In this document: positions 10,357-52,021 of the stretch, piece by piece
How the letters are laid out: every line of letters starts with the position of its first letter
How positions within the stretch are numbered: the stretch's first letter is position 1
Source of the DNA: Verrucomicrobiota bacterium
Lineage (GTDB): Bacteria; Verrucomicrobiota; Verrucomicrobiia; Limisphaerales; JBBRPK01
Assembly (NCBI GenBank): GCA_038228235.1
Contig: JBBRPK010000016.1
Span: 526 to 64,525, forward strand
Length of the DNA: 64,000 nt
Direction of reading: 5' to 3'
Notes under the pieces: generated by a model
What the model was told of the DNA's origin: nothing
The model's database searches: none
Seen by the model: only the letters and a program-made list of their open reading frames with translations
Program-made: the position numbers and the translations under genes

Positions 10357-11142
10357 ATGCCCTCATCACTGGCGAATAAATGGGTTTTAATCACGGGCGC
10401 TTCCAGCGGGTTCGGCGCGGCGGCCGCAAAGGCCTTTGGCGCGGAAGGAGCAAAGCTTTTGTTGGGCGCGCGCCGCGTCGATCGGCTGGAAGAGACCGCC
10501 ACTGTGGCGAAGAAATCGGGCGCGCCCGCCGCTCATCTTCATGCCCTCGATGTCACCAAAACCAGCAGCGTCGAAGAATTTGTGAAGTGGGCGCGCAGCC
10601 TCACGGAAAATCTGGACGTGTTAGTGAACAACGCGGGCGGGGCGCATGGCATGGATTCTGTGGCCACGGGCAGGGATGAAGATTGGGAAGCAATGTTCCA
10701 ATCCAATGTGTTGGGACTGCTGCGGATGACCCGCGCCTGTTTGCCGATGCTGATGAGCAATCCGGGCAGTTCCATCCTCAACATTGGCTCCGTAGCTGGC
10801 CACACGGCTTATGAAGGGGGCGCAGCTTACTGCGGCGCAAAATCAGCGGAACTGCAAATTACCCGTGCCCTGCGACTCGAACTTTGCGGCACGGGGGTGC
10901 GGGTAGGCACCATCGATCCGGGAATGGCCGAAACCGAATTCTCCAAGGTCCGGTTCAAAGGTGACGAGGCGCGTTCAAAAAAGGTGTATGAAGGTGTAAT
11001 CCCTCTAACCGCCGAAGATATCGCCCAAACGCTGGTTTGGGTCGCAAGTCGCCCCGCACACGTCAATATCGATGAACTCATTATCAAGTGCACCGATCAA
11101 GCGGCCATTCACAAAGTCCATCGCAGGACCACCAAGCCATGA
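10357..11142 (+). CDS. short-chain dehydrogenase/reductase (SDR)
   Basis: Start at MPSSLANKWVLITGASSGFG (TGxxxGxG). NNAG motif and the catalytic YCGAK (YxxxK). Confidence 0.85.
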   Translation: MPSSLANKWVLITGASSGFGAAAAKAFGAEGAKLLLGARRVDRLEETATVAKKSGAPAAHLHALDVTKTSSVEEFVKWARSLTENLDVLVNNAGGAHGMDSVATGRDEDWEAMFQSNVLGLLRMTRACLPMLMSNPGSSILNIGSVAGHTAYEGGAAYCGAKSAELQITRALRLELCGTGVRVGTIDPGMAETEFSKVRFKGDEARSKKVYEGVIPLTAEDIAQTLVWVASRPAHVNIDELIIKCTDQAAIHKVHRRTTKP

Positions 11143-29759: not shown

Positions 29760-31946
29760 TTATTCCAAAACCAACTCGATGGACCGCGCCTTTTGAATGG
29801 ATTCTAGAACGGCAAAGGTCAACAACATGCTCACGCGAGACTGCTCGTACGGTAATGGATGTTCGGCTTGCCCGCGGAGGAAAGACAGCCATGCAGCCAT
29901 CTGCTCGGCGTGTCCCTTGGAAGTGTAGGAAAAGTTTGATTCCTTCCGCCCGCCATACACGCTGAGCTTCTGGAAATTTACTATTTCTGCCACTAACCCG
30001 GCGCCGAAAACCGTCACGGTCTCCTTCGGGAAACTGGAGTCTCCTTCCGCCGTGTAAATCAGTTGTCCGCAGGAGCCATCCCCAAACTCCACCTGGGCAG
30101 CGACGCTATCGGGGAAGGGTAATCGGCCTAAAGCCGGCCAGGTGGTTTGGGCCGCTACTCGCACGGGTTTGGCGTCGAACAAAAAACAGAAGTAGTCAAG
30201 GAAATGGCAGGCCTCGCCCAGCACGCGCCCGCCGCTTTCGGCGTAATTCGCGTACCAATGTTGAGGATCAAGTTTGCCGGCAAGGACTCGATAGGTAGCT
30301 GATTTCGGTCCTGCTGAGGCTGCCAAATACCTTTTCAATTCCACGCTGGCGGGAGCGAACCGGCGGTTAAAGCCTACTTGCACAGTGCCCTCACTTTTCG
30401 ACAATGCGGCATCGATTTCTGCCAGTTCCTTCTGCGAAAGGCAGAGGGGCTTCTCCACGAAGATATGCCGGTTGGACTCCAACGCAGTCTCAATGAAAGG
30501 AGCGTGCAAGTGATGCCGTGTGGCGATCAAGAGCGCTGCCGGCTCGGGGTCGCTGAAAAGTTCCCCAGGGTCGGCTTCCGCCGATTGGAAGCCAAATTTA
30601 GTTTTGACATGCTTCGCGCTCAAGGCGGTTTGATTTACCACCGTACCGAAAGGAATTTGTCCTTTCAAATGCGGCAGCAGCATGGTGCGCGCGAAGTTTC
30701 CAGCGCCAATGACATCAAGGCGAGTGATGGGGGCGGTGAGTTTTCCCCGTTCCGCTTTGGATTTCCAATCAGCAGCCGGGAGCTTTGTAGCTGACTCAAC
30801 CTTGCTTGAAGGCTGATTGTTTTCCAAAACATCGTATTCGAGCACCACGCCAATGTCCTGGGCGCCATCTGCCATTAAATCGTGGTACACCTTCAAAGCA
30901 TCCGCGAATGGAGCGGTCCTCGTAGTAATGCCCGCCAGATTTATTTGGCCTGCCGCTATTAAATGCAGACAGGCCTGAAAATTTCTCTGCTCGGTCCAGC
31001 GCACGTAGCCGATGGGGTAATCGTTTCCGCCCCATTCATAGTTGGGATCATAGCGGCCGGGCCCATAAGAACGGGAGAAGCGGACGTCCAGTTCCTTTTC
31101 GTAGAACATTTTCCAAGGCAGTTCGATTTTGGTGATGCCTACATCCACCAACCGCCCGCGATCCCGGAGCGATTCCGCGGCTTGTTCAACCGGCGTGTTG
31201 CTTTGCGTCGCGGTGCAGAGGACCACAGCGTCCACACCGAAACCGTCCGTCCAGGCGCGCACTTCGTCGGACAAGTTTTGCTGGCCCAGGATGACGACCT
31301 TCTCCGCCCCCATGGCTTCGCAAAACGGGCGGCGGGAGGCCTGGAGATCCACCGCCATCACACGAGCGCCGTTCGCTCTTAAGATATTTGTCACCAAAAG
31401 CCCGACCAATCCTTGGCCCATCACCAGCACGCGGTCGCCGAGGCAGGGTTCGGTTTGCCGTACTGCCTGGAGGGCGATTGCGCAGAGTGTCGTGTAGGCC
31501 GCTTGCCAGTTTTTCACGCCCTCGGGCACCGGCGCCACTAACAAATCCGGCAGCGCCAGGTATTCCGCATGGAAAGCGCATTCCGCGCCGGCGCAAGCCA
31601 CCCGGTCACCGACACGAAAACGAGTATTGGCGGGGTCCACTTCCGCAATGACACCGGCGGCGCTGTAGCCAAGCGGAGTGGGGGTCTGCAGGCGGTTGCG
31701 GACTTTTTCCAAGGCACTGCGCCAGCCCAGAGTTTTGGCCGTATCCAAAACTTTCCTAACTTGCTCGGGCCTGGCACGAGCCTTTTGGAGCAGATTCATT
31801 CTCGCCTGCTCCACTTTCATTTTCTCAGTGCCGATGCTGATGACCGAGTGAGTGGTTTGGACGAGCACTCCTCCAGGCGGCGCAACGGGCCGGGGCAGCT
31901 CTTGCAACTCCAAACGCCCATCCTGATATTGCGCAATTTGCTTCAC
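29760..31946 (-). CDS. bi-domain oxidoreductase (zinc-type alcohol dehydrogenase/MDR N-half + Gfo/Idh/MocA C-half)
   Basis: 728 aa. GTG start overlaps the upstream stop (GTGA). MDR-like N-half with VLVMGQGLVGLL Rossmann. C-half with LDVIGAGNFARTMLLPHL Rossmann and VEKPL motif. Confidence 0.8.
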   Translation of the reverse strand: MKQIAQYQDGRLELQELPRPVAPPGGVLVQTTHSVISIGTEKMKVEQARMNLLQKARARPEQVRKVLDTAKTLGWRSALEKVRNRLQTPTPLGYSAAGVIAEVDPANTRFRVGDRVACAGAECAFHAEYLALPDLLVAPVPEGVKNWQAAYTTLCAIALQAVRQTEPCLGDRVLVMGQGLVGLLVTNILRANGARVMAVDLQASRRPFCEAMGAEKVVILGQQNLSDEVRAWTDGFGVDAVVLCTATQSNTPVEQAAESLRDRGRLVDVGITKIELPWKMFYEKELDVRFSRSYGPGRYDPNYEWGGNDYPIGYVRWTEQRNFQACLHLIAAGQINLAGITTRTAPFADALKVYHDLMADGAQDIGVVLEYDVLENNQPSSKVESATKLPAADWKSKAERGKLTAPITRLDVIGAGNFARTMLLPHLKGQIPFGTVVNQTALSAKHVKTKFGFQSAEADPGELFSDPEPAALLIATRHHLHAPFIETALESNRHIFVEKPLCLSQKELAEIDAALSKSEGTVQVGFNRRFAPASVELKRYLAASAGPKSATYRVLAGKLDPQHWYANYAESGGRVLGEACHFLDYFCFLFDAKPVRVAAQTTWPALGRLPFPDSVAAQVEFGDGSCGQLIYTAEGDSSFPKETVTVFGAGLVAEIVNFQKLSVYGGRKESNFSYTSKGHAEQMAAWLSFLRGQAEHPLPYEQSRVSMLLTFAVLESIQKARSIELVLE

Positions 31947-39579: not shown

Positions 39580-39790
39580 AACTACGCCATTTTGGGGCAG
39601 AAGGAAACTTCTTTTTTCCGGCGGACAAAGGTCATGTTGTGTTCACGCGCCATACAGGGGGAGGCACCGCCCGACCCTTCCCGGAAAGTGAATATATTTT
39701 ACGAAAAATTTAAGCAAAAAACAATGGTAACGTGACACGAGTTCTGCTATAAAGGCAATGGTCCCTGAAAAATGCTCAAAACGACGTATC

Positions 39791-42700
39791 ATGAAGACTG
39801 AAAAACTTTACCAGCTTGCCATTGGCATTCTCCTCGGATTCTTGCTGGTGGCGCTATCCGCCACCGCCCAGGAGAACCTTTTGATCACTGAATTCATGGC
39901 GAATAACACCCATACTCTTGTCGATGAGGATGGACAGTTCTCAGATTGGATCGAAATCCATAACGCCGACACTAATGCCGTCAATCTGAATGGCTGGTTT
40001 TTGACGGATAGCCCATCGGTGCTGAACAAATGGAGTTTTCCAAACACTAATTTAGCCGCCAACGGTTACCTGGTCGTATTTGCCTCGAACAAAAACCGAC
40101 GCGTTCCCGGCGCTCCGCTGCACACGAATTTCAGGCTTGGCAACAATGGCGAGTACTTGGCTTTGGTCCATCCAGATGGCGTGACCGTCGCTTTCTCTTA
40201 CGCTCCAAAATACCCCGTCCAAGTGGCCGATATTTCCTATGGCATCCCCAGCCATGAAGTCGTGTCGACCCTCATCGCCAGCGGAGCGGTCGCCAGAGTG
40301 TTGGTGCCGTCGGATGGTTCGCTGGGCACAAGCTGGATTGGTCCCGATTTCGACGATTCGGGCTGGATCAGCCTGGGGACGGGCATCGGCTACGAAACCG
40401 ATGTCCAAACCAACTTTGCGACAATTCAGATCGCAGACTCGGTGGCCGAGTTTTCCGGAGTTCAAGGGTCGAACAACTGGTTTTACGGTTATTGGAACAA
40501 ATCGGCTGACAATGACGGCGTGTACTCTGACGCGGAATTTATTCCCTTCGCAAATAGTCTTTGGAGAGGAACCGGCGGAGGTTGGGATTTGGCGGTGGGG
40601 ATTGCGCCCTGGACGCAATTAACGGGCAATGGCGGACGTCCCAATGGCCTTAATAATGGGGAAGAACACTGGGCTATTCGCCGCTATGTCAGCGAAGTCA
40701 CAGGATCCATCCGAATTTCCGGCACCCTGCTCCATCGGGTCGGCACCTGCGGCGACGGAGCGACGGTGCGAATTGTGGTCGATGGCTCCGAGATTTATCG
40801 CCGGGCGGTCTTCCAGACCAGCGCTGGATATTCGCTGATCGCAAAGGTTAATCTTGGCTCCCATGTAGATTTCGTGATCGACCCGGGCCCGGCCAGTGAT
40901 GACAATTGTGATATCATCACGTTTACCGCCACCATCCGAACCGCAGACCCGGCTATCGCCATCGTGGCGGACACGATGGCCGACTGGTCTTATTCCGGCC
41001 ATCAGGGGGAGAAGAATTGGTTTTACGGGAATTATAACCTCACCTGGGACGCGATTCCTAATTACCAGACGACTAACTTCGCGGCTTTCCCCAGTGACAG
41101 TGGACCGCCGAGCGCCTCGAACTTTTGGGATGGAGAGAAGTGGGTATGGTATAATGGCAACCCCCCTCGTGACGTCATCGGTCAACTCTATTGTTTTCCT
41201 AATGGAAACAATGTGAACGTCGGGCAAATACATTGGGTGATTCGTCGCTGGGTCAGCCAGGTGAGCGGCACCCTCACAGTGGACTGGCATCTGGCCAAAC
41301 AGGATACCTCGGCGCAAGGGGGAAGCGGGGTAACGGGCCGTATTTTTCAGAATGGCGCGCAAAAGGACTTCGCGACGGTGGGGAACGGCGACTCTAATGG
41401 CGTGTCCCGCACGGTTAGCATCCAAAATGTTCAAAGGGGTGACATGATTGATTTTGCTCTCGACCCCACGGGCGTCGGGGGCGCGACGGACGATTTTTCC
41501 GATGGAGCCTTCCTGAACGCCACCATTTATGGATTCGCGAACTTGTCCAATCAAATCACGTCCAACATCCAGGCCTTGATGCAAAGTAATAATGCCAGCG
41601 CCTATATTCGCATTCCTTTCACCGTCACCGATCCGGCCGCCTTCAATTTTTTAACGCTACGGATGAAATATGATGACGGATTCATCGCTTTAATTAACGG
41701 CGGAGTGGTGACCACTCGCAATGCCCCGCTCACGCCCGATTGGAATAGCAGCGCCACGGCCACCCGGTCCGACGCCGATGCCGCGCAGTATGAAGACATC
41801 GACATCTCGGAATGGCTGGGACTGCTCCACCCCGGCACCAACGTCCTGGCGATCCAGGGATTGAACGTGAGTCCAAATGATTCGGACTTTCTTATCCTTC
41901 CAGAGTTGCGCGCCACCGCGCTGATTCAGGACACCTCGGTTCGAAGCTATTTTGCAACGCCGACCCCCGGGGCGGCAAACGGGCCTGGAAACACTAACCT
42001 TGGCCCGCTGATCGTCGAGGTCACCCATATTCCCGCTGTTCCGTTCGTGAATCAAAATCTAGTGGTCACGGCCATGGTCGCGCCCTCCTTTCGTCCGGTG
42101 CAATCGGTCACATTGATTTATCGAATCCTTTTCGGTCCCGAAGTGAGCCTGCCGATGTTGGACGATGGCCTTCACGGAGATGGGCTGGCCAATGATGGAG
42201 TTTATGGAGCCAGCATTTCAGCAACCAATTTCACTCCCGGCCAGATGATTCGCTACTACATCGTGGCCAGAGATACGAATAGCAATCTCTCGCGCCTGCC
42301 CTTGTTCCAAAATCCCATCACCACCCCGCAATATCTGGGCACCATCGTCTATTTGGAGCAGACAAATAATTTGCCCATTTTTCATTGGTTCGTCCAGAAT
42401 CCTTCCCAGGCCGATCAGGTCACTGGCGCGCGGTGTTCGATTTTTTATGAGGGCATTTTTCACGACAATATTTCCGCGGCGTTGCATGGCCAGTCCAGCT
42501 CGGGGTTCCCGCAAAAGAGCTATGGCTTTGACACCAATCCAGGTTTTCAGTTCAAATACGCTCCGGATCAGCATCCCGTCAGCGGCTGGGACTTGCTTAC
42601 TATTTACGCCGATAAATCGCACCTGCGTAACATGCTTGCCTACGGCACATTCCGCGACGCCAACTCCCCCTACCATATTGTCTTCCCCATCCGCGTTCAA

Positions 42701-45700
42701 CAGAATGGCGCTTTCTTTAGTGATGCCAATTTTTGCGAGCGGGGGGACAATACATTCCTTTCGCGTCTGGGATTGGACCCGCAAGGGGCCCTCTACAAAA
42801 TGTACAATACCTTCAGCAGCCTGGCCGATACCATCATCGGCTCCAGCCAACTCGGGGCATATGCCGAAAAGAAAACGCGCAAAAACGAAGGAAATGCTGA
42901 TCTGGTTGCGCTTTTGAAAGGGGTGCAACTCACGGGCACGGACCAGGCGAAATACCTTTATGATAACGTCGATGTCCCTGAAGTGATCAATTTTTTGGCG
43001 GGGATGATTATTATCGCCGACGTGGACTGCTGCCACAAGAATTATTACTTCTATCGCGACACCGACCACACTGGCGAATGGCAAATGTTTCCGTGGGACC
43101 TCGATTTAAGTTTTGGACGAGTCTGGAGTAACGGCCCGACCTACTGGGATGAGGTGCTCCATCCGGATACCGGCCTCTACGTGGGAAATAACAACTCATT
43201 GCCTGTGGCGCTGTTTGGCAGGCCCGAGATCAAGCAGATGTATCTTCGGCGCATAAGGACGTTGATGGAGGAGTTAATGCAGGCCCCCGGCGTCCCCAGC
43301 GCGCAATTGAGGTATGAAGCGCAAATGGACCAACTGGCGGCCCAGATCGCGCCGGACGCCGCCCTCTACTCGCAGAAGTGGCCGTCCTGGGGCCAAGGCT
43401 CGGCCACGTCAACCTGTTGCACTCAAACGCTGGCCCAGGCGGTGAGTATTCTTAAAACGAATTACCTGCCGGCGCGGCGTCTTTTCTTATTCACGAACCA
43501 GGTAGCCAGCGCTGGCATTCCTCAGTCGCAGCCTACCAACACCGTGATCAACTTTGGAGCCATCGAATTTAATCCTGCTTCCGCAAATCAGGCTCAAGAA
43601 TATCTTCAGCTCCTCAATACCAATTCCTACAGCGTGGATATCTCCGGCTGGAGGATCACCGGCGGTGGCATCGATTATACTTTCAAAGGCGGGGTTGTCG
43701 TCCCGACCAACGGGGTGCTTTATCTCACCCCCGACCCAGTGGCATTTCGAGCGCGGCCCGTGGCCCCGAAAGGGGGGGGCGGCCTGTTTCTGCAAGGGAG
43801 CTACAAGGGGCAACTGTCTGCTCGAGGAGGCACTTTGCAATTGATCGACAAGGGCGGACGAGTCGTCCTTGGCACCAATTATCTGGGCAACCCAAGCTTG
43901 CCTCAGCTTTATCTGCGCATTACTGAGATCATGTACCATCCGCCGCCTCCTCCCCCTGGGACATTGTATCTCACGGAGGATTTTGAGTACATTGAGTTGA
44001 AGAACATTGGCCCCGTCTCGCTGGATTTAACAGGCGTCCATTTCACCAATGGAATAGATTTCAATTTCACGGGCAGCAGCCTGGTTAACCTTGCCGCCGG
44101 ACAAACAGTCCTGATCGTGAGGAATCTCGCGGCTTTCACCTCTCGTTACGGCAGCGGTCTGAGCATCGCCGGCCAGTACGGCGGCCACTTAAGTGATAGC
44201 GGCGAAAAGCTGGAGCTGGATGATGCGGTGGGTGAAATCATCCTCGCTTTCTCCTACTCTAACACCTGGTATCCCATTACAGATGGGGCCGGCGCGTCCC
44301 TCGTCATCGTGGATGAAAATGCTCCATGGCACACTTGGGGTCATATGTCCAGTTGGCGTCCAAGCGCCTACGACGGAGGTTCGCCAGGGGTGACCGATCC
44401 GCCGCCCATCTTCGTCGAACCCATCCTCATCAATGAATTGTTGAGTCATAGCGCCGCCCCGCTCGTCGATACAGTCGAACTCTATAATCCCAATCCTGAT
44501 GATGTGAACATTGGTGGCTGGTTTCTCACGGACGATTTGACCAGCGCTAAAAAATTCCGTGTCCCGGATGGGTTCATGATCCCCGCGGGGGGTTACGCCG
44601 TCTTTGATGAAACTCAGTTCAATCCCTTTCCTGGCGTGCCGCCGAGCTTCTCCTTTAGCGCGAAAGGCTCCCAGGTTTACTTGTTCTCAGGTGATGCCCG
44701 TACGAACCTGACTGGTTATTTCCATGGTTTCCAATTCGGCGCCGCCGAGAGTGACGTCTCTTTTGGCCGTTACGTCACGAGCCTCGGAGTGGAACATTTC
44801 ATTGCCCAGAGCCAGCGCACTTTCGGCGCCGTGAATGCCGGACCCAAGGTCGGCCCTGTGGTGGTCACCGAAATCATGTATCACCCGCCGGATCTGCCCG
44901 GCAACAATGACAATCAAGTCGATGAATACATTGAACTCTATAATGTGACCGCCAATGCGGTCCCGCTCTTTGACCCCGCGTTTCCGGGTAATACATGGCA
45001 TCTGCGTGGGGACGTGAATTTTGACTTTCCGCTCAACACCTCCATTCCAGCCAGTAACTACTCGATCGTGGTCAGCTTTAATCCGACTGATCAGACGTTG
45101 CTCAACAATTTTCAGAACAAATATGGAATTCCTATCAATGTGCCGGTCTTGGGACCCTATAGCGGCAGCCTGAGCAACACAGGCGGCAGCATTGAGTTGT
45201 CTAAACCTGACCCGCCCTCCGGAGGCCAGGCACCGTACATTTTGGTGGATAATTTTGATTATGCAAACTCTGCCGCCTGGGCGATTGCCGATGGCCTCGG
45301 AGGTTCTTTGCACCGGTTGCATGCTTCTGAATATGGGAATGATCCGATCAATTGGACTGCAGCGGCCCCCAACCCGGGCGCGCCCTACGTGGCCGGTGGC
45401 ACCCTGCCGACCATCACCAGCCAGCCGGGTAATTTTGCTGTGCCCACAGGCTTCGATCGATTGTTGTCGGTCAGCGCCACCGGCACCCCGCCTTTGCGGT
45501 ATCAATGGCGTTTTAACGGCCAAAACCTTTTTGGCGCCAACAGCTCCACTTTGCTGCTATCCAATTTCCAGTCCAGCCAGGCCGGAGTTTATAATATCTT
45601 CGTTTTCAACAGCGCGGGCTCTGCCCTCGGAACCAATTTTACGCTCACAGCCCGGACCGGGTTGAAGATCACCTCCCAACCGCTGAACCACATCGCCACC

Positions 45701-46612
45701 GTTGGAGCCACCACCAATTTCACGGTGTCCGCCGTCGGCACCGGCACGTTGCGCTACCAATGGCGCTTCAATGGCGTCAACATTCCCAATGCGACTAACG
45801 CCTCGGCTTCCAACCCGGGAGTTAGCGTCCTTCTCCTCACAAATATCTCCGTCGCGAGCCAGGGAACCTACGATTGCCTCGTCAGCGCTGATTATGATCC
45901 GACAGTAATCAGTCAACCTGCCACTCTGACCATCGTTTACAAGCCCTTCTACACCCTGATGCCTTCGAGCACAGCGGTTGGTGTCGTCGGCCAAAGCGTC
46001 AGCTCCTCCCTGTCAGTTACCGGCACGCCGCCCATGACCTATCTTTGGCGCAAATTGGGTGCCGGCATTTTAAACCCAGGGGCCTTCAGCGGTTACATCG
46101 TCTCGACCCCGACATATTCTTCTCTGATTTTGACCAACCTCACTACCAACAATGCGGGCACCTATTTTGCCTTAGTGACCAACAGCGTCGGCCTTGCGTT
46201 GGGTGGGGGACCTAACGGCCTAAGCTACAGCAATGTTCTGACAGTACTCGCCGACACCGATCTCGATGGCCTGCCAGACGTGTTTCAAGCTGCACACCCA
46301 GGCGTTGTGGGCGCCGGAGACGAAGACCATGACGGCATGAGCAACGCCGCGGAGTATTTTGCCGGCACCGATCCTTTTGACCCCGCCAGCAACTTAAAAC
46401 TCAACACGGTCGGAATCGCAGGGGGAACACTCCAATTTAGCGCCGTGTCCAACCGGACCTATACCGTGCAATATACCGATCGTCTCGGCTCTGGGCCCTG
46501 GAAGAAGTTGGCCGATGTTTTGGCCAGGAATAGCACGCGCATCGAAGCGGTGACGGATCCCAGCCCAGTCACGAATCGGCTTTATCGAATTGTGACGCCC
46601 ATACAGCCCTGA
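39791..46612 (+). CDS. giant secreted multidomain protein: lamin-tail domains (LTD) + CotH kinase-like domain + Ig-like repeats + Ca-binding TSP3-like motifs + C-terminal beta-sandwich
   Basis: ATG at 39791 gives the signal peptide MKTEKLYQLAIGILLGFLLVALSATAQE. LTD patterns recur (LLITEFMANN...SDWIEIHN...LNGWFLTD; LRITEIMYHPP...YIELKN; ILINELLSH...VELYNP...IGGWFLTDD; VVVTEIMYHPP...YIELYN). CotH stretch DVDCCHKNYYFYRDTDHTGEWQMFPWDLDLSFG. Three to four Ig repeats with (L/T)RYQWRFNG. DTDLDGLPD...DEDHDGMSNAAEYFAGTDPFDP. Confidence 0.85.
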   Translation: MKTEKLYQLAIGILLGFLLVALSATAQENLLITEFMANNTHTLVDEDGQFSDWIEIHNADTNAVNLNGWFLTDSPSVLNKWSFPNTNLAANGYLVVFASNKNRRVPGAPLHTNFRLGNNGEYLALVHPDGVTVAFSYAPKYPVQVADISYGIPSHEVVSTLIASGAVARVLVPSDGSLGTSWIGPDFDDSGWISLGTGIGYETDVQTNFATIQIADSVAEFSGVQGSNNWFYGYWNKSADNDGVYSDAEFIPFANSLWRGTGGGWDLAVGIAPWTQLTGNGGRPNGLNNGEEHWAIRRYVSEVTGSIRISGTLLHRVGTCGDGATVRIVVDGSEIYRRAVFQTSAGYSLIAKVNLGSHVDFVIDPGPASDDNCDIITFTATIRTADPAIAIVADTMADWSYSGHQGEKNWFYGNYNLTWDAIPNYQTTNFAAFPSDSGPPSASNFWDGEKWVWYNGNPPRDVIGQLYCFPNGNNVNVGQIHWVIRRWVSQVSGTLTVDWHLAKQDTSAQGGSGVTGRIFQNGAQKDFATVGNGDSNGVSRTVSIQNVQRGDMIDFALDPTGVGGATDDFSDGAFLNATIYGFANLSNQITSNIQALMQSNNASAYIRIPFTVTDPAAFNFLTLRMKYDDGFIALINGGVVTTRNAPLTPDWNSSATATRSDADAAQYEDIDISEWLGLLHPGTNVLAIQGLNVSPNDSDFLILPELRATALIQDTSVRSYFATPTPGAANGPGNTNLGPLIVEVTHIPAVPFVNQNLVVTAMVAPSFRPVQSVTLIYRILFGPEVSLPMLDDGLHGDGLANDGVYGASISATNFTPGQMIRYYIVARDTNSNLSRLPLFQNPITTPQYLGTIVYLEQTNNLPIFHWFVQNPSQADQVTGARCSIFYEGIFHDNISAALHGQSSSGFPQKSYGFDTNPGFQFKYAPDQHPVSGWDLLTIYADKSHLRNMLAYGTFRDANSPYHIVFPIRVQQNGAFFSDANFCERGDNTFLSRLGLDPQGALYKMYNTFSSLADTIIGSSQLGAYAEKKTRKNEGNADLVALLKGVQLTGTDQAKYLYDNVDVPEVINFLAGMIIIADVDCCHKNYYFYRDTDHTGEWQMFPWDLDLSFGRVWSNGPTYWDEVLHPDTGLYVGNNNSLPVALFGRPEIKQMYLRRIRTLMEELMQAPGVPSAQLRYEAQMDQLAAQIAPDAALYSQKWPSWGQGSATSTCCTQTLAQAVSILKTNYLPARRLFLFTNQVASAGIPQSQPTNTVINFGAIEFNPASANQAQEYLQLLNTNSYSVDISGWRITGGGIDYTFKGGVVVPTNGVLYLTPDPVAFRARPVAPKGGGGLFLQGSYKGQLSARGGTLQLIDKGGRVVLGTNYLGNPSLPQLYLRITEIMYHPPPPPPGTLYLTEDFEYIELKNIGPVSLDLTGVHFTNGIDFNFTGSSLVNLAAGQTVLIVRNLAAFTSRYGSGLSIAGQYGGHLSDSGEKLELDDAVGEIILAFSYSNTWYPITDGAGASLVIVDENAPWHTWGHMSSWRPSAYDGGSPGVTDPPPIFVEPILINELLSHSAAPLVDTVELYNPNPDDVNIGGWFLTDDLTSAKKFRVPDGFMIPAGGYAVFDETQFNPFPGVPPSFSFSAKGSQVYLFSGDARTNLTGYFHGFQFGAAESDVSFGRYVTSLGVEHFIAQSQRTFGAVNAGPKVGPVVVTEIMYHPPDLPGNNDNQVDEYIELYNVTANAVPLFDPAFPGNTWHLRGDVNFDFPLNTSIPASNYSIVVSFNPTDQTLLNNFQNKYGIPINVPVLGPYSGSLSNTGGSIELSKPDPPSGGQAPYILVDNFDYANSAAWAIADGLGGSLHRLHASEYGNDPINWTAAAPNPGAPYVAGGTLPTITSQPGNFAVPTGFDRLLSVSATGTPPLRYQWRFNGQNLFGANSSTLLLSNFQSSQAGVYNIFVFNSAGSALGTNFTLTARTGLKITSQPLNHIATVGATTNFTVSAVGTGTLRYQWRFNGVNIPNATNASASNPGVSVLLLTNISVASQGTYDCLVSADYDPTVISQPATLTIVYKPFYTLMPSSTAVGVVGQSVSSSLSVTGTPPMTYLWRKLGAGILNPGAFSGYIVSTPTYSSLILTNLTTNNAGTYFALVTNSVGLALGGGPNGLSYSNVLTVLADTDLDGLPDVFQAAHPGVVGAGDEDHDGMSNAAEYFAGTDPFDPASNLKLNTVGIAGGTLQFSAVSNRTYTVQYTDRLGSGPWKKLADVLARNSTRIEAVTDPSPVTNRLYRIVTPIQP

Positions 46613-46913
46613 TGTAGAACTCGTCCCTTCAACATCATTGCAGGAGCCGACGCAGGCAGGCTTTTCCGTTTTGCCTTCAGTCATGGCCTTCTCGGCAGCT
46701 TCAGCAGGATAAACTGATGCGGATGAATGCCGAAGCCGGCACAGGCCCAGCGGACTGGCATTAAAGTGGCGAGCTGGGCACGGGCCGTTGCACATCATTT
46801 GGAGTGCCGCCGCGGCTCAGCAGTGTAACACAATCGTAACACTTTCGACCTTTGGTCGTAACATATGCCATTTAGTCTGCCACCCGGAAACCAGCAAACA
46901 TAAACTGAAACTT

Positions 46914-48380
46914 ATGAAGCAAAAATGCACAATTTGGGCAACGCTGGCGGCGAGCATCTTCGTCGGCGGGGCTCTGGCCACCAGCACGCAGGGGCAGACT
47001 TCAGATGCATTGATGAACACACTGCTGAAGAAGGGAATCATTACCGAAAAGGAAGCGCAGGACATCAAGGCTGAAGCGAGCAAGGAAAACCAGAAACAAT
47101 TTAACCAGGCCTTCTCTGCCAAGACCGGCATGCCCGCGTGGGTTAACAGCTATAAGCTTTACGGCGATTTTCGAGGGCGCTTCGAAGAAGATTATTCAGA
47201 CAACTTGATTTATCACGAAAGGGACCGCTACCGCTTTCGCCTTCGCCTGGGGCTGAATGTTTCGATGGTGGACAATTTCGATGTCGGTTTCCGGCTGGCG
47301 ACGGGCAACCCACAGTTTAATAACGGCGGTTTCCTGGTCGGAGGCCAATCCATCACTGCCAATCAGGACTTGAACTCGCTGGAATCGCGCAAATTTGTTT
47401 GGATTGATGCGGCTTACGGGAAATGGACTCCCATCAAAAACGGCAATTGGACCGTTTCGGCCACCATTGGGAAGATGGATAATCCGTTTCAACTTTCCAA
47501 TATGGTTTGGGATTCCGACATCAATCCCGAAGGGGCTGCGCTGCAGATCGCTTACAACCTCAACGATCATCATGCCATTAAGCTTAACAGCGGCATTTTC
47601 GTCCTTGACGAATTTAACCAGGGAAATCCCTCGGGTAGCACCGTGCCGGCGGCCTTTCCTGTGAAGGCGAGTCATGACCCCTACCTCTATGGGAACCAAC
47701 TCTTGTTCGAATCCAAGTGGAATAAGAACCTTGAAACGTCCGTGGGCCTGGCGCAATTCAACATAGTCCACAAAGAATCTCTGAGCGGATTGGTGCAGCC
47801 CCTTTACAATGCGGGCAATAGCCGCGATCTCAACGGCTATCTGATCCACCATTATAACCCTTTCATCGCTAGTGCCTGGGCGACTTATAAGATTGATACT
47901 GGCCCCTCAGTCCAATTCCCGATCAAAGCAGGGGGTGAATATATGCATAACCCCTCCGCCCCCTCGGATCGAAACACCGGCTATCGAGTTGGGGTCACCC
48001 TGGGCAAGGCAGGACGCAAGAATACGTGGGAAGTGAATTACCGGTATCAACGCTTGGAGGCTGATGCCTGGTATGATGCGCTGGTGGACGATGATAACCG
48101 CATTTTCTTTGCCCCGGGGGCTTACAGCGCCGCAAATTACAACCCGCTGCGCTTTAGAGGGCTTGGTTCAGGCACCTTGGGGAGCCGGAAAGACTATGGA
48201 ACCTTCGGCGGCACCAATGTTAAGGGTCACCAAATTGTAGCTACCTATTCTTTCACTGACTTCCTGAACTTTACTTTCATTTATTACATAAATGATGCGA
48301 TCTTTAGTTCCAACGGGGCTGGCTTTGACGATCGCTCCCATGCCGGCCACTTCATGGCCGACTTGAACTGGAAGTTTTAA
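46914..48380 (+). CDS. outer-membrane beta-barrel, porin-like protein
   Basis: ATG at 46914 gives the signal peptide MKQKCTIWATLAASIFVGGALATSTQG. Charged N-terminal helix, then alternating amphipathic aromatic-rich strands. The C-terminal ...DLNWKF ends in Phe, typical of OM barrels. Confidence 0.6.
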   Translation: MKQKCTIWATLAASIFVGGALATSTQGQTSDALMNTLLKKGIITEKEAQDIKAEASKENQKQFNQAFSAKTGMPAWVNSYKLYGDFRGRFEEDYSDNLIYHERDRYRFRLRLGLNVSMVDNFDVGFRLATGNPQFNNGGFLVGGQSITANQDLNSLESRKFVWIDAAYGKWTPIKNGNWTVSATIGKMDNPFQLSNMVWDSDINPEGAALQIAYNLNDHHAIKLNSGIFVLDEFNQGNPSGSTVPAAFPVKASHDPYLYGNQLLFESKWNKNLETSVGLAQFNIVHKESLSGLVQPLYNAGNSRDLNGYLIHHYNPFIASAWATYKIDTGPSVQFPIKAGGEYMHNPSAPSDRNTGYRVGVTLGKAGRKNTWEVNYRYQRLEADAWYDALVDDDNRIFFAPGAYSAANYNPLRFRGLGSGTLGSRKDYGTFGGTNVKGHQIVATYSFTDFLNFTFIYYINDAIFSSNGAGFDDRSHAGHFMADLNWKF

Positions 48381-48652
48381 GCCGTCCGAAGCGAACGCTT
48401 TTTGATCGGCAGTGAAAAGAACGCCCTTCCAGGGTTAGCGTGTTAGGGCGCGCCTGGCTGCCCAAACTTCTCTATCTGCCGACTTGGAGGTCGCGCCACA
48501 GGCGTTCGGAGTTCTGGCTCACAGGAGGTGCCATTCCTTGGGATGGTGGCAGTGGCCAGATGCGCCCGAAGAGCTGGGTCAAGACGAGATAAGCTTTACA
48601 ATAAAGTTTAACCTGTTATTTGAACGGGGTTCATTCATCGCAATTCACTGAT

Positions 48653-51600
48653 ATGAAAGCAAAAGCAATTTCTTCGGTAATAGCCTTCATCACTTTAGTC
48701 TCCGGCTCTCGGGCGAGCGATCCGACCACAGCAGCTTTGACTTCCGGAGGGCAAACGCGGATTGCCGTTTGCTTTCCTGTGTGTGTTGACTCCAGCGCGG
48801 TGGATTTCCACAATTACACTCTCCACGCCGGAGCGGCCTCGATCACCCCGCCAGGCGCTTTGCTGGCGGACGGTCGAACCGTGTTGCTGAACGTGAGCGG
48901 GTTGACCGCAAATACTTACACCTTGGATGTTGCTGGCAGCCAGATTCAGACTTGTGAGGGCGCATTGCTCGCAGATGTCACCCTCACCGGCGCCGTCGAA
49001 AGCAGATTCACCATTGAGGATGTCGGCAGCCCGACCATCGCCAGCATTTCCTTCAGTTGCGGCGCGGGCAACCTCAGTTTGATTGCCGGAGGCAACGCCT
49101 TCACCAACATCTCGGACCAGCTTGCCTTTGCTTACGAATCGGTGCTGGGCGATTTCGACAAAAAGGTGCAACTGGCCGGCCTGCTGGCCTCGGATGCCAC
49201 CGATGGGTTTGCTCGCGCCGGCCTCATGGTGCGCACGTCCATCGACCCGGGCGTGTTGGACCTGGAATTACTGGCCAGCAATCCCATGGGCGACAACGCT
49301 GTCCGATGTGTGTTTCGCGCCGATGTTGGGAACAGTTATGACGAAATGGACCGCCCTTATTTCGGTGTGGCTACCAATCTTCCCAATCAGTGGCTGCGGG
49401 TAAAGCGCGTGGGAGACGACTTTCAAATGTTTGTCGGGCTTGACGGAGTTCATTGGTCCATGGTGGCCCAACGGTGGCAGGAACTGCCGTCTGCGCTGCT
49501 GGTAGGCTGCTACGCCGCCGCCAGCAAAGAGGGCGCGACCGCCAGCGCGCAATTCATGAATTACACAAATGTCGATCTGGCGGATCACACCCCGCCGAGG
49601 TTGGTGTCGGCCGGGACTCTGGACAAGAAAGTGGTGGGGGTGAAATTTTCTGAAACCATCAGATCAACAACCGCGTCGGTGCTGGCCAATTATACCGTGC
49701 TTAATTCCAATAACAGTCCTGCTACAGTTACGGCCGCTAAAGTTGGCATCGAAGGGGATGCCGCCTATCTGGCCGTTAGCGGCTTGCTGAGCGACACCTT
49801 CACGGTCCGCGTCAATGGCGGGATCAGCGACAGCGCAGGAAACGTCATCGTGGCGTCCACATCAGTGACCGGGAAAGTTTCACTGTGGGTTTCGGAAGAC
49901 ATCGGCTTCTTCCAGGACCCCGCCAACCGGCCTTCCGTCGGGGATGACCCCATCAGAGTAGGCCAGGCGGTGGCCGTGTCTTCGGATGAGAACCCGGAGA
50001 TTGAAATTGTCGGCGGCGGTTCCAATCTGCGGGATGCAGGCGATTACGGCCACTATCTGAATCAAACCATGACGGGCGATTTTGACGTGTCGGTGGAGGT
50101 GACTCGCTACGACCGATGCTACCAAACGGGAGGATTTGCCAACGCTGGGATTATGGCCCGGAACAGTTTTTATAACGTTGGCTACGAATATACCCCGATT
50201 GGAACGAGAGTTCCCTACTATGCGAATCTCACCTACGCAGAAGACAATCAGGCCATCGGGTCCCTGGCAGTTTGGCGTGATACTCCCTTTGGGACCAGGG
50301 ACGATTCGCTGGCGAGGAAAGGCCTGGCGTTGTCCACTGCAACCCTGATCGACGGGATGATTGGCACCTTCGGGAATCTCAGAGCTGCCAACGCCAGAGG
50401 CGACGCTCTCCCAAACTCCTCAACCAATGCCAGCCGCTGGCTTCGATTACAACGGGTGGGCGATCACTTCACGTCTTATGCTTCGTGGGATGGCCGAGTT
50501 TGGCAAAAAGTCGAAGAGGGCGATCATCCCCTGGATTCGACTGTGGACGTTGGTTTTTTCACCTCTAATGATAGCGGCAACACGGCGCCCACAGGCAATG
50601 CTTACGATGGCGACAACCAACGGCCCTCGATGTACTCAGTTGTGCACCTGCGTCATTTAGGCGTCACGCCTCTGCCTGGCCAAGTTATGAGCGACCCACC
50701 CCCAGGTCCAGTTTTCGCGATCGGCAGCACCAATGGGATGCCTGGAGATGATGTCGTGATTCCGGTTCAACTGAGCGGATGCTTTAGCATTGTTACTTTG
50801 CAATTCTCCCTCCACTGGGACCCAACTATGGCCACGTTTGTGGACGTGGAACAGTTCGGGCTGACAGGGATGTCGGCTGGGAATTTCACGACTAACAATG
50901 GGCTGCTTACTATCATGTGGAATGCGCCTTCCACCAATGGCCTGTATCTCCCGATTACGAGCACGATTTTTGCGGTTCGGCTCCACTTGATTGGAGCCCT
51001 CGGCGCCTCGAGTGAGCTGTTCATCGACGGAAACCCGACCGTTGTGGAAGTCTCATCGGATCAGGCAATCCTGGCTCCCAATTTTCTTCCGGGAAATTTA
51101 ACGATCGGCCCACAAACCGGTCTTCCACCGGTCTTCCAACCGTTAAACAATTTTTTGGCTGAGGTGTTGCTGCCGCTGAAAGTCACCAATGTTGCCACCG
51201 ATCCCAATGTCCCTCCTAATCATCTGACGTTCCAAATCGTGGGTGGGCCAAAAGGGTCCCATATCAATACAAATGGGGTGGTGGTTTGGGTACCCTCGCG
51301 AAGCCAAGGGCGAAGCACCAACTGCATCACCATCCTTGCGACTGACGATGGAAATCCGCCCCGGAGCACTGTCAGGACCTTTGCGGTATTCGTCGATGAT
51401 TACCTGGAGTTGAGCTTGGGAAGATCTGTCGTGCGCAGTGGGGACACCGGGAGCGTATTTATTACTGCAACCACTACCACGGGAGTGACTAATATCAGCT
51501 CCTCCCTTTTCGTGCCAGTGAATGGTCTGACGGGTTTGGGATTATCCGGTATCGCGCCCGGAATCCAATCTGCCACTTTGACCGACCAAGGGGGAGGTCT

Positions 51601-52021
51601 TTCCAGCCTGCGCTTCAGTCCTGCCAACGGTCAAAGTATTCAGACCACCCAAACGCTCGCCCACTTGGACTTCACCGCCGTGGCCACCGAATCTATGTTC
51701 GTGCCTCTGATAATTTCCAACGTAGTTGGCACGCGGCCAAGCGGGGGCGCGCTGATGAGGACCCTGGCTGACGCTGGGCGAGTGGCGGTGGTGGCCAATG
51801 AACCCTTGTTGGAGGTTTTAACTTCGACCAATCTGCAGCCTCTCTTAATTCTCTACGGGCAAAATGGATCGAATTACGTGGTGCAATCGACGACCGACCC
51901 AGAGGGAAAACCCGGCAGTTGGCAAACTGTGTGGCAGGGCCAGCTCACCAATCTTACCCAAATAGTTCCCCTCACAATCACGAACAACCACAATGTTCTG
52001 TTTTTCCGATCCGTTAAGTGA
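48653..52021 (+). CDS. large secreted protein: two ConA-like (DUF1349/LamG-type) modules, SbsA-Ig-like, cohesin-like and cadherin-like Ig domains
   Basis: ATG at 48653 gives the signal peptide MKAKAISSVIAFITLVSGSRA. Two copies of GDFD..V......AGLM(I)(V/A)R...WLR(V/L)(K/Q)RVGD.F...(G/S).DG..W. Cohesin-like block GMPGDDVVIPVQL...LQFSLHWDP. Cadherin-like LTFQIVGGPKGSHINTNGVVVWVP. Confidence 0.6.
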   Translation: MKAKAISSVIAFITLVSGSRASDPTTAALTSGGQTRIAVCFPVCVDSSAVDFHNYTLHAGAASITPPGALLADGRTVLLNVSGLTANTYTLDVAGSQIQTCEGALLADVTLTGAVESRFTIEDVGSPTIASISFSCGAGNLSLIAGGNAFTNISDQLAFAYESVLGDFDKKVQLAGLLASDATDGFARAGLMVRTSIDPGVLDLELLASNPMGDNAVRCVFRADVGNSYDEMDRPYFGVATNLPNQWLRVKRVGDDFQMFVGLDGVHWSMVAQRWQELPSALLVGCYAAASKEGATASAQFMNYTNVDLADHTPPRLVSAGTLDKKVVGVKFSETIRSTTASVLANYTVLNSNNSPATVTAAKVGIEGDAAYLAVSGLLSDTFTVRVNGGISDSAGNVIVASTSVTGKVSLWVSEDIGFFQDPANRPSVGDDPIRVGQAVAVSSDENPEIEIVGGGSNLRDAGDYGHYLNQTMTGDFDVSVEVTRYDRCYQTGGFANAGIMARNSFYNVGYEYTPIGTRVPYYANLTYAEDNQAIGSLAVWRDTPFGTRDDSLARKGLALSTATLIDGMIGTFGNLRAANARGDALPNSSTNASRWLRLQRVGDHFTSYASWDGRVWQKVEEGDHPLDSTVDVGFFTSNDSGNTAPTGNAYDGDNQRPSMYSVVHLRHLGVTPLPGQVMSDPPPGPVFAIGSTNGMPGDDVVIPVQLSGCFSIVTLQFSLHWDPTMATFVDVEQFGLTGMSAGNFTTNNGLLTIMWNAPSTNGLYLPITSTIFAVRLHLIGALGASSELFIDGNPTVVEVSSDQAILAPNFLPGNLTIGPQTGLPPVFQPLNNFLAEVLLPLKVTNVATDPNVPPNHLTFQIVGGPKGSHINTNGVVVWVPSRSQGRSTNCITILATDDGNPPRSTVRTFAVFVDDYLELSLGRSVVRSGDTGSVFITATTTTGVTNISSSLFVPVNGLTGLGLSGIAPGIQSATLTDQGGGLSSLRFSPANGQSIQTTQTLAHLDFTAVATESMFVPLIISNVVGTRPSGGALMRTLADAGRVAVVANEPLLEVLTSTNLQPLLILYGQNGSNYVVQSTTDPEGKPGSWQTVWQGQLTNLTQIVPLTITNNHNVLFFRSVK

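What the first reader, a model, noticed from the sequence alone, without database searches (positions are those of the whole stretch)
39580..52021. Surface module: giant LTD/CotH kinase-like protein, porin-like barrel, giant ConA-like/cohesin-like protein
Three consecutive plus-strand genes (12.2 kb) all carry signal peptides. The first combines at least five lamin-tail domains, a CotH domain, Ig repeats and Ca-binding DxDxDG-type motifs. The CotH domain has apparently intact catalytic-loop and metal-binding stretches (DVDCCHKNYYFY, PWDLDLSFG). CotH is an atypical protein kinase in Bacillus spore coats, and its role in non-sporulating PVC bacteria is unknown. The third gene has two lectin-like modules plus cohesin-like domains. 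An outer-membrane barrel encoded between two very large secreted proteins suggests a dedicated export, anchoring or uptake partner. Together with the divergent glycan operon this forms a 22-kb candidate cell-surface system with no described function.
Basis: partly seen in the sequence, partly recalled or inferred. Interest (0 to 1): 0.65.

Follow-up and report, generated by a model that had tools for sequence, protein, structure and literature searches.

The report
Three unlinked envelope genes, not a module
The three genes and their domains are real (a giant secreted protein with an apparently intact CotH kinase domain, a porin, and a lectin/cohesin protein), but they sit together only in this one species, so they are three independent envelope genes and not a dedicated surface system.

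Summary
The sequence observation holds. Three plus-strand genes encode P1 (39791-46612, 2273 aa: LTD, three jelly-roll domains, Ig, CotH, four LTDs, three Ig, a TSP3-like repeat and a C-terminal domain), P2 (46914-48380, Porin_5 barrel) and P3 (48653-52021: two DUF1349 modules, Big_5, one cohesin). The CotH catalytic residues are present and invariant in 63 homologues.

- None of 80 loci carrying P1 homologues (37-78% identity) has a porin nearby.
- None of 20 loci carrying porin homologues (42-78% identity) has a CotH/LTD or P3-like gene nearby.
- No flanking gene family recurs in more than 6 of the 80 P1 loci.
- The adjacency is seen only in relatives at 90% identity or more.

The barrel belongs to a large Verrucomicrobiota porin family. 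Its closest solved fold is the general diffusion porin OmpM/OmpF. It is not a protein exporter.

P1 belongs to a large family of about 2,300-aa proteins in Verrucomicrobiota. It is probably an extracytoplasmic CotH-type kinase carried with glycan-binding-like modules, but its substrate is unknown. P3 is a mosaic protein.

Verdict: ordinary members of known kinds, and low-to-moderate interest. The residual interest is the unstudied P1 family and its widespread, uncatalogued C-terminal domain.

The parts
39791..46612 (+). P1: 2273-aa secreted multidomain protein (an alternative ATG at 39758 would give 2284 aa). It belongs to a large Verrucomicrobiota family of LTD/CotH/Ig proteins.
   Evidence: ORF; Pfam LTD x5, CotH, Ig x3; gene called from 39791 in public assemblies; more than 100 full-length homologues at 44-60% identity with the same Pfam set.
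39860..40192 (+). P1 LTD 1 (aa 24-134), directly after the signal peptide (aa 1-27)
   Evidence: Pfam LTD 57.1 bits, E 2.6e-15; signal-peptide heuristic.
40370..41560 (+). P1 duplicated jelly-roll domains A1 (about aa 194-394) and A2 (about aa 395-590). Neither has a Pfam or NCBIfam model.
   Evidence: No family hit at E<=1. A1 and A2 are 32% identical, E 2e-16. The AF2 model gives all-beta domains at pLDDT about 90. Foldseek finds CBM51, GH2 sugar-binding and C1q-type jelly rolls.
41585..42352 (+). P1 third beta-sandwich (about aa 599-724), followed by an Ig-like domain carrying the choice-of-anchor X motif (aa 787-813)
   Evidence: AF2 secondary structure; NCBIfam choice_anch_X 40.9 bits, E 1.3e-10.
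42482..43408 (+). P1 CotH kinase-like domain (Pfam aa 898-1206; about aa 859-1244 in the model)
   Evidence: Pfam CotH 107.7 bits against a cut-off of 23.8; phmmer hit to 5JD9 at E 2.2e-6; Foldseek hit to 5JD9 at E 1.7e-15, TM 0.79.
43019..43120 (+). CotH catalytic core: D1077-D1090 (DVDCCHKNYYFYRD) and P1101-R1110 (PWDLDLSFGR). The proposed residues are catalytic Asp D1079, Asn N1084 and metal-binding Asp D1103.
   Evidence: Alignment to B. cereus CotH. These residues are invariant in 34 and in 63 homologues. B. subtilis CotH D228Q and D251A are inactive (PMC7821199). The equivalence to D228 and D251 is inferred from the 23-residue spacing.
43565..45088 (+). P1 LTDs 2-5 (aa 1259-1359, 1375-1489, 1544-1611, 1687-1766)
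   Evidence: Pfam LTD on separate pieces scores 35.9, 40.0, 39.9 and 24.6 bits. The fifth LTD, taken alone, is below the 34.3-bit cut-off.
45413..46210 (+). P1 three Ig (I-set/Ig_3) domains
   Evidence: Pfam Ig_3 E 2.6e-24 in 3 stretches.
46253..46609 (+). P1 tail: TSP3-like Ca-binding repeats (DTDLDG, DEDHDG) followed by a 70-aa C-terminal domain
   Evidence: TSP3_bac E 4.6e-4. D2155/2157/2159 and D2177/2179/2181 are invariant. The C-terminal domain is found in 2,362 representative clusters. In 124 of the 149 best hits it ends within 5 aa of the protein's C-terminus. It occurs on proteins with different N-terminal parts.
46914..48380 (+). P2: 488-aa outer-membrane porin (Porin_5), with signal peptide, N-terminal helices at aa 30-71 and a beta-barrel at aa 77-488
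   Evidence: Pfam 122.4 bits against a cut-off of 22; AF2 pLDDT 83.6, pTM 0.82; Foldseek best hit OmpM1 8BYM at E 2.5e-16, followed by OmpK35/OmpF/OmpC, OprP, OprB and AlgE.
48653..52021 (+). P3: 1122-aa secreted mosaic protein. It has DUF1349 (ConA-like) modules at about aa 120-310 and 410-670, Big_5 at 327-401, cohesin at 688-774, a cadherin-like stretch at about 855-916, and an unassigned C-terminal 200 aa.
   Evidence: Pfam. The cohesin matches solved cohesins 5NRK (E 2.9e-4), 2VN5 and 1G1K, and the cadherin-like stretch matches 7JGZ at E 0.014. Homologues cover only the N-terminal 41-64% of P3. No relative of aa 675-1122 was found in 1.58 Mb of fetched loci.
46613..46913 (.). 301-bp intergenic gap between P1 and P2. 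The gap between P2 and P3 (48381-48652) is 272 bp.
   Evidence: Sequence. No terminator-like or promoter-like site falls in either gap, and counts over the whole region are not above the shuffled controls. Operon structure is therefore undetermined.

Best explanation
The region holds three independent envelope or surface genes that are adjacent by chance of genome arrangement in one species of Verrucomicrobiota (Limisphaerales-like, judged from the titles of the homologues' records).

P1 is one member, often one of several per genome, of a large family of about 2,300-aa secreted proteins. Its order of domains is: N-terminal LTD, three glycan-binding-like jelly rolls, an Ig/choice-of-anchor X domain, a CotH-type kinase domain with an intact and invariant catalytic core, four more LTDs, three Ig domains, Ca-binding TSP3-like repeats, and a C-terminal domain shared with many other proteins.

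Most likely mechanism for P1 (inferred, not shown): it is exported by Sec and held at or beyond the envelope by its Ig-TSP3-C-terminal-domain tail. The beta-sandwich and LTD modules bind a polymer, either a glycan or another surface macromolecule. The CotH domain then phosphorylates an extracytoplasmic substrate.

P2 is a small-solute diffusion porin of the OmpM/OmpF structural type with a short periplasmic helical N-terminus. It is not a translocator for the giant proteins.

P3 is a species-specific mosaic. It consists of a conserved [Big_5-DUF1349]x2 lectin-like core to which a cohesin-containing C-terminal half has been added.
For: No conserved linkage:
- None of 80 P1 loci has a P2 homologue, by tblastn or by a porin HMM.
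- Only 4 of 80 have a weak P3-N-terminus-like ORF, and it lies upstream, not downstream.
- No flanking family occurs in more than 6 of 80 loci.
- The 60%-identical P1 homologue (L024) lies between rpoN and a modABC-like transporter. The 78%-identical one (L023) follows an M24 peptidase.
- Porin homologues at 78%, 64% and 64% identity, plus 14 GTDB loci, lack P1, P3 and all flanking genes. The only P1-HMM hits there are generic Ig domains.
- The adjacency is retained only at 90% identity or more.

P1 family and kinase core. There are two paralogues in one MAG, with locus tags QOF48_807 and QOF48_1160.

Porin type: and OmpM biology from PMC10628300.

P3 mosaic.

The surrounding genes are housekeeping genes, including MutS, GltX, RNase II, ClpB and RecN, with no secretion-system genes.
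Against: - The three genes share a strand and are consecutive, and co-transcription was not excluded. No terminator was found in the 301-bp and 272-bp gaps.
- Many metagenome contigs are short. Only 34 of 80 P1 loci have at least 5 kb downstream.
- Kinase activity, surface location and the glycan-binding role of the jelly rolls are all inferred.
- ATP availability outside the cytoplasm is an unsolved problem for any secreted CotH protein.
- The N-lobe ATP-binding residues were not checked one by one.
Confidence: 0.8

Rival explanations
1. One reading: the three genes, plus the divergent glycan operon, form a dedicated surface system in which the barrel exports, anchors or serves the two giant proteins.
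For: The three genes are consecutive on one strand and all carry signal peptides. The adjacency is kept in three contigs from near-identical relatives.
Against: Gene order is absent from all 80 P1 loci, all 20 porin loci and 3 P3-homologue loci. The barrel is an OmpM/OmpF-like general porin fold. It gave no hit to POTRA, ShlB, autotransporter or secretin families in Pfam. The glycosyltransferase, methyltransferase and AsnB genes never accompany P1 homologues.
Confidence: 0.04
2. A species-specific coupling: the cohesin acquired by P3 binds a dockerin-like Ca-binding element, so that P3 scaffolds P1 on the surface. The candidate element is the TSP3-like repeats of P1. This would resemble the CotH-dockerin proteins of cellulosomes.
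For: P3 has a true cohesin (38.4 bits; matches to solved cohesins). CotH and LTD-CotH proteins with dockerins are known cellulosome components (PMC6083626; PMC12484212). The P1 tail has two invariant DxDxDG loops.
Against: No dockerin family hit in the P1 tail at E<=1. The TSP3 plus C-terminal-domain tail occurs on thousands of proteins whose genomes were not shown to have a partner cohesin. The P3 cohesin half has no detectable relative among the P3 homologues found or in the fetched loci, which include the 80 P1 loci.
Confidence: 0.06
3. The CotH domain of P1 is not an enzyme here. Instead it is a binding or structural module, as proposed for the Mucorales CotH invasins, and P1 is simply a giant adhesin.
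For: CotH proteins of Mucorales act as ligands for host receptors (PMC9973265). P1 is dominated by adhesin-like Ig, LTD and beta-sandwich modules. Extracellular ATP is scarce (general knowledge).
Against: The catalytic Asp, the Asn at +5 and the metal-binding Asp are invariant in 63 homologues, in an alignment whose mean column identity is 44%. That pattern is expected for a conserved catalytic function.
Confidence: 0.25

Closest known systems
Bacillus CotH spore-coat kinase (PDB 5JD9/5JDA; Pfam PF08757)
   Same: Same fold (Foldseek E 1.7e-15, TM 0.79). The catalytic loop D-x4-N and the PWD metal-binding stretch align. The Pfam match is well above the cut-off.
   Different: About 19% identity. 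In P1 the domain is embedded in a 2273-aa secreted protein of a non-sporulating diderm. There are no CotB/CotG-like neighbours. The substrate and the ATP source are unknown.
Cellulosomal CotH proteins of Clostridium thermocellum (CseP = CotH + dockerin; Cthe_0239 = LTD, LTD, Fn3, CotH)
   Same: Both are extracellular and combine LTD with CotH in one secreted protein (PMC6083626). Their role is likewise unresolved (PMC12484212).
   Different: P1 has no dockerin. It is far larger and has three jelly rolls, five LTDs and an Ig-TSP3-C-terminal-domain tail. The host is a Verrucomicrobiota bacterium with no cellulosome context in the window.
OmpM1 of Veillonella parvula (PDB 8BYM) and the OmpF/OmpC/OmpK general porins
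   Same: Best structural matches to the P2 barrel (E 2.5e-16 and about 1e-10). Like OmpM, P2 has helices N-terminal to the barrel.
   Different: P2 has no SLH domain. Its helical segment is only about 40 residues. No solved relative is detectable by sequence. It belongs to Pfam Porin_5.
Verrucomicrobiota [Big_5-DUF1349]x2 proteins (about 730 or 1,300 aa, annotated 'hypothetical' or 'regulation of enolase protein 1, ConA-like')
   Same: 40-67% identity to the N-terminal 41-64% of P3.
   Different: None of them carries the cohesin-containing C-terminal half. They lie at unrelated loci.

Membership tests
CotH kinase family (PF08757) | Profile match above the curated cut-off | tested here: met
   107.7 bits against 23.8, E 1.1e-30, profile positions 3-300 of 322.
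CotH kinase family (PF08757) | Atypical kinase fold like B. cereus CotH | tested here: met
   AF2 model (pLDDT 88.4) against 5JD9: E 1.7e-15, TM 0.79 normalised to the target.
CotH kinase family (PF08757) | Catalytic Asp (B. subtilis D228), Asn five residues later, and metal-binding Asp (B. subtilis D251) | tested here: met
   D1079, N1084 and D1103 align to the corresponding D, N and D of 5JD9. They are invariant in 63 homologues. D228Q and D251A are inactive in B. subtilis (PMC7821199). The mapping from B. subtilis to B. cereus rests on the identical 23-residue spacing.
CotH kinase family (PF08757) | N-lobe nucleotide-binding residues; ATP binding and phosphotransfer | not testable with these tools
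This needs biochemistry.
Lamin tail domain (PF00932) | Profile match, repeated | tested here: met
   Five stretches, 170.9 bits in total. Taken singly they score 57.1, 35.9, 40.0, 39.9 and 24.6 bits against a cut-off of 34.3. Four pass alone; the fifth passes only in context.
Porin_5 (PF16930) | Profile match, and a beta-barrel fold | tested here: met
   122.4 bits against 22. The model is a beta-barrel with about 16-18 predicted strands and pTM 0.82. Porin folds are the top matches.
OmpM-type tethering porin | N-terminal SLH domain that binds peptidoglycan | tested here: not met
   No SLH hit in Pfam. Only about 45 residues lie between the signal peptide and the barrel.
OmpM-type tethering porin | Coiled-coil stalk preceding a general-porin barrel | tested here: inconclusive
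   Helices at aa 30-39 and 45-71 are predicted in a monomer model. The motif D31/L33/L37/K40/G41/E47/A48 is conserved. Trimeric coiled-coil formation was not modelled.
Dedicated protein-export barrel (two-partner secretion TpsB/Omp85, autotransporter, secretin) | POTRA, ShlB, autotransporter or secretin domains, and conserved adjacency to the cargo gene | tested here: not met
   Porin_5 is the only significant P2 hit in Pfam. Adjacency to P1 or P3 is absent from 20 porin loci and 80 P1 loci.
Cohesin (PF00963) / cohesin-dockerin system | Cohesin profile match | tested here: met
   38.4 bits against 24.1, E 1.7e-9. Matches to solved cohesins 5NRK, 5NRM, 2VN5 and 1G1K.
Cohesin (PF00963) / cohesin-dockerin system | A dockerin-bearing partner | tested here: not met
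   No dockerin family hit in P1, P2 or P3, and none in the P1 tail at E<=1. The rest of the genome is unavailable, so a partner encoded elsewhere was not tested.
Conserved gene cluster / operon | Gene order conserved across related genomes | tested here: not met
   The order is conserved only at 90% identity or more.
DUF1349 (PF07081, ConA-like) | Profile match | tested here: met
   42.6 bits against 32.4 for the whole protein, in two stretches. Each stretch alone scores about 26 bits, below the cut-off.

The most novel reading that the evidence does not exclude
The P1 family is a large Verrucomicrobiota family of surface-tethered, catalytically active extracytoplasmic CotH kinases. Its three uncatalogued jelly-roll modules target a glycan or envelope polymer, which the kinase then phosphorylates. 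Its Ig-TSP3-C-terminal-domain tail, shared by more than 2,000 protein clusters, is a previously undescribed sorting or anchoring signal of this phylum. In this species P3's cohesin might additionally dock such tails.
Probability: 0.2. Interest if true: 0.65.

Novelty: new member of a known kind. Interest (0 to 1): 0.27.

Why it matters
As submitted, the finding does not stand as a dedicated three-gene surface system, and this check prevents a chance adjacency from being catalogued as a new system.

Three things remain of value.
1. P1 documents a very large, architecturally stable family of giant secreted proteins in soil and freshwater Verrucomicrobiota. They carry an invariant CotH catalytic core. 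The role of CotH kinases outside spores is an open question, and this family offers many natural sequences and a confident model for designing constructs.
2. About 765 residues of P1 are unassigned in Pfam, yet the model folds them confidently into beta-sandwich domains.
3. A 70-aa C-terminal domain is found at the extreme end of thousands of otherwise different proteins and is absent from Pfam and NCBIfam. It could be a sorting or anchoring signal.

Tried and rejected
- Synteny from the porin side: 14 GTDB loci and 3 context look-ups, with no P1, P3 or flanking genes.
- Synteny from the P1 side: 80 metagenome loci, tested with tblastn, clustering of all flanking ORFs, and a porin HMM. All negative.
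- Synteny from the P3 side: two look-ups (three loci), negative.
- The P1-HMM hits in two porin loci turned out to be generic Ig and F5/8-type domains.
- Shared C-terminal domain between P1 and P3: rejected. BLASTP found nothing, and an HMM built from 149 C-terminal domains does not match P3.
- Second cohesin in P3: rejected.
- Dockerin in P1: none.
- Terminators and promoters in the intergenic gaps: not above shuffled controls, so uninformative.
- Sequence search of the PDB with the porin profile: nothing significant.


Full report
**1. What is in the sequence**

Three consecutive + strand ORFs occupy 39758-52021. With the most plausible ATG starts they are:
- P1, 39791-46612, 2273 aa. This is the start called in public assemblies.
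- P2, 46914-48380, 488 aa.
- P3, 48653-52021, 1122 aa.

ClpB follows at 52037 and RecN lies on the minus strand after it. Upstream, on the minus strand, are a GT1 glycosyltransferase, a methyltransferase, AsnB, a PHP protein, an adenylate-forming-like protein, an aminotransferase and an ADH-GFO fusion. The rest of the window is housekeeping: DeoC, RNase II, GltX, MutS, CinA, MFS transporters and similar genes. All three proteins have Sec-type N-termini by a simple heuristic.

- P1 has five LTD stretches, CotH (107.7 bits) and three Ig domains.
- P2 is Porin_5 (122.4 bits).
- P3 has two DUF1349 stretches, Big_5 and one cohesin.

The quoted motifs DVDCCHKNYYFY and PWDLDLSFG are present. The one correction is that a second cohesin is not supported.

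**2. Is it a module?**

I tested gene-order conservation from all three genes.

*Porin side.* The family is large: 807 hits at E<1e-5, mostly Verrucomicrobiota.
- In 14 loci from GTDB representative genomes (42-61% identity, up to 10 kb of flank on each side), tblastn found no homologue of P1, P3 or any flanking gene.
- The closest porins, at 78%, 64% and 64% identity, sit respectively next to a response regulator and a molybdenum oxidoreductase, next to FtsH and an epimerase/glycosyltransferase pair, and next to an RND efflux operon with LptF/G further downstream.
- One MAG carries two paralogues.

*P1 side.* I examined 80 metagenome loci carrying homologues at 37-78% identity.
- None has a P2 homologue by tblastn or by an HMM built from 111 porins. 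Of these loci, 47 have at least 2 kb downstream and 34 have at least 5 kb.
- Only 4 have a weak DUF1349-like ORF, and it lies upstream.
- After clustering all 766 ORFs called in these loci, no flanking-gene family occurs in more than 6 loci.
- The 60%-identical homologue lies between rpoN and a modABC-like transporter. The 78%-identical one follows an M24 peptidase.

*P3 side.* Homologues at 67% and 44% identity lie at unrelated loci.

The arrangement recurs only in contigs that are 90-100% identical, which means the same species.

**3. The barrel**

An AF2 model built from 111 sequences has pLDDT 83.6 and pTM 0.82. It shows N-terminal helices (aa 30-39 and 45-71) followed by a beta-barrel with about 16-18 predicted strands.

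The best solved match is OmpM1 of Veillonella parvula (E 2.5e-16, TM 0.71 normalised to the target). After it come OmpK35, OmpF, OmpC, OprP, OprB and AlgE. OmpM is a 16-stranded general diffusion porin with a coiled-coil stalk and an SLH domain (PMC10628300).

P2 has no SLH domain or any protein-translocation domain. It does have an invariant arginine cluster (R89, R103, R105, R107, R109, R111, R127) and an acidic stretch (D392, D394, with D393 nearly invariant). I interpret these, by inference, as a porin eyelet. A small-solute channel is the best reading. A barrel of this kind is not expected to pass 120-250 kDa folded proteins (general knowledge). About half of the porin loci (9 of 20, 7 of them independent) have an RND efflux pump nearby. 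This shows that the family's recurrent neighbour, if it has one, is not P1.

**4. P1**

More than 100 full-length homologues (2,046-2,630 aa, 44-60% identity) share the same Pfam set. Where they are named, the name is 'lamin tail domain-containing protein' from Verrucomicrobiota. Two come from one MAG, with locus tags QOF48_807 and QOF48_1160.

Residues 135-900 have no Pfam or NCBIfam model apart from a choice-of-anchor X motif. An AF2 model of aa 135-1250 (63 sequences, mean pLDDT 88.4) resolves them into three beta-sandwich/jelly-roll domains, an Ig-like domain and the CotH domain.
- The first two jelly rolls are a true duplication (32% identity, E 2e-16).
- Several family members appear to lack one or both, because their matches to P1 begin at about aa 307, 385 or 590.
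- Foldseek matches the jelly rolls only generically, to CBM51, GH2 sugar-binding and C1q-type domains. It matches the CotH part specifically to B. cereus CotH (E 1.7e-15, TM 0.79).

In the phmmer alignment to 5JD9, P1 VDCCHKN lies over FDGFVHN and PWD lies over PWD. The two aspartates in 5JD9 are 23 residues apart, as are D228 and D251 of B. subtilis CotH. The D228Q and D251A mutants of that protein are inactive (PMC7821199). D1079, K1083, N1084, D1103 and D1105 are invariant in 63 homologues whose alignment has a mean column identity of 44%. The catalytic core is therefore intact and under constraint. Activity, substrate and ATP source remain untested.

Secreted LTD-CotH proteins are already known in cellulosomes: C. 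thermocellum Cthe_0239 and CseP (PMC6083626). Their role is unclear (PMC12484212).

**5. The tail of P1**

The last 89 aa hit 2,362 clusters at 50% identity (649 of them at E<=1e-10). In 124 of the 149 best hits the domain ends within 5 aa of the protein's C-terminus. Eight carriers that I scanned have different N-terminal parts (Laminin_G_3 with He_PIG, a NosD beta-helix, DUF6242, LTD, or CotH with CHB_HEX_C), and most of them share an Ig and TSP3-like region before it. Neither Pfam nor NCBIfam models this domain.

This is the signature of a shared C-terminal sorting or anchoring cassette. That function is inference only. The C-terminus of P3 is not of this type.

**6. P3**

Homologues cover only the N-terminal 41-64% of P3, the [Big_5-DUF1349]x2 core. 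The closest ones (56-67% identity) are only 730-857 aa long. The C-terminal half carries a real cohesin (matches to solved cohesins) and a cadherin-like stretch. It has no relative among the hits or in 1.58 Mb of fetched loci. The word-index search could have missed distant relatives. P3 is best read as a mosaic protein particular to this lineage.

Because CotH-dockerin proteins exist in cellulosomes, I considered a cohesin-P1 interaction. P1 has no dockerin, and the pairing is not conserved. I rate this possibility at about 6%.

**7. Verdict**

- Observation: confirmed.
- Domain-level interpretation, including the intact CotH core: supported.
- 'Dedicated surface module' and '22-kb system': not supported.

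Each gene is a new member of a known kind. Interest is low to moderate. What remains worth following is the unstudied P1 family, as a candidate extracytoplasmic CotH kinase, and its widespread, uncatalogued C-terminal domain.

Noticed in passing
window 23859-28250 (+): A single 1463-aa ORF joins a Y-family/ImuB-like N-terminus (IMS and IMS_C, aa 7-336) to a DnaE2-like polymerase (PHP, DNA_pol3_alpha, finger and HHH_6, aa 415-1262). In the described mutasomes these are separate proteins.
   Followed up: no
window 46343-46609 (P1 aa 2185-2273): An uncatalogued C-terminal domain of about 70 aa, preceded by TSP3-like repeats. It is found in 2,362 representative clusters, almost always at the very end of the protein, and on proteins with unrelated N-terminal domains. 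It may be a sorting or anchoring signal.
   Followed up: partly
window 40193-42490 (P1 aa 135-900): About 765 residues with no Pfam model fold confidently into three jelly rolls plus an Ig domain. The first two jelly rolls are a duplication, and several family members appear to lack one or both.
   Followed up: partly
L003, L004, L005, L007, L015, L016, L020-L022 (porin homologue loci): Porin_5 homologues lie close to an RND efflux pump gene, and in L020 to a full OEP-MFP-RND operon. This holds in 9 of 20 loci, 7 of them independent. It is a more recurrent neighbour than anything in the window.
   Followed up: partly
window 47001-47126 (P2 aa 30-71): A conserved helical N-terminal segment precedes the barrel, with D31, L33, L37, K40, G41, E47 and A48 nearly or fully invariant. 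It recalls the OmpM stalk but has no SLH domain. A tethering role is possible but untested.
   Followed up: no
window 29760-31946 (-): A 727-aa fusion of a zinc-type alcohol dehydrogenase (ADH_N/ADH_zinc_N) with a GFO/IDH/MocA oxidoreductase lies at the far end of the divergent sugar-modification gene row.
   Followed up: no
window 50675-52018 (P3 aa 675-1122): The cohesin-bearing C-terminal half of P3 has no detected relative, while the N-terminal half has 56-67%-identical homologues that stop right after the second DUF1349. This suggests a recent domain accretion.
   Followed up: partly
window 11088-14726 (+): A 1212-aa DUF7133/HEAT-repeat protein. A DUF7133 protein also neighbours a P3 homologue in L103. 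This is probably coincidental.
   Followed up: no
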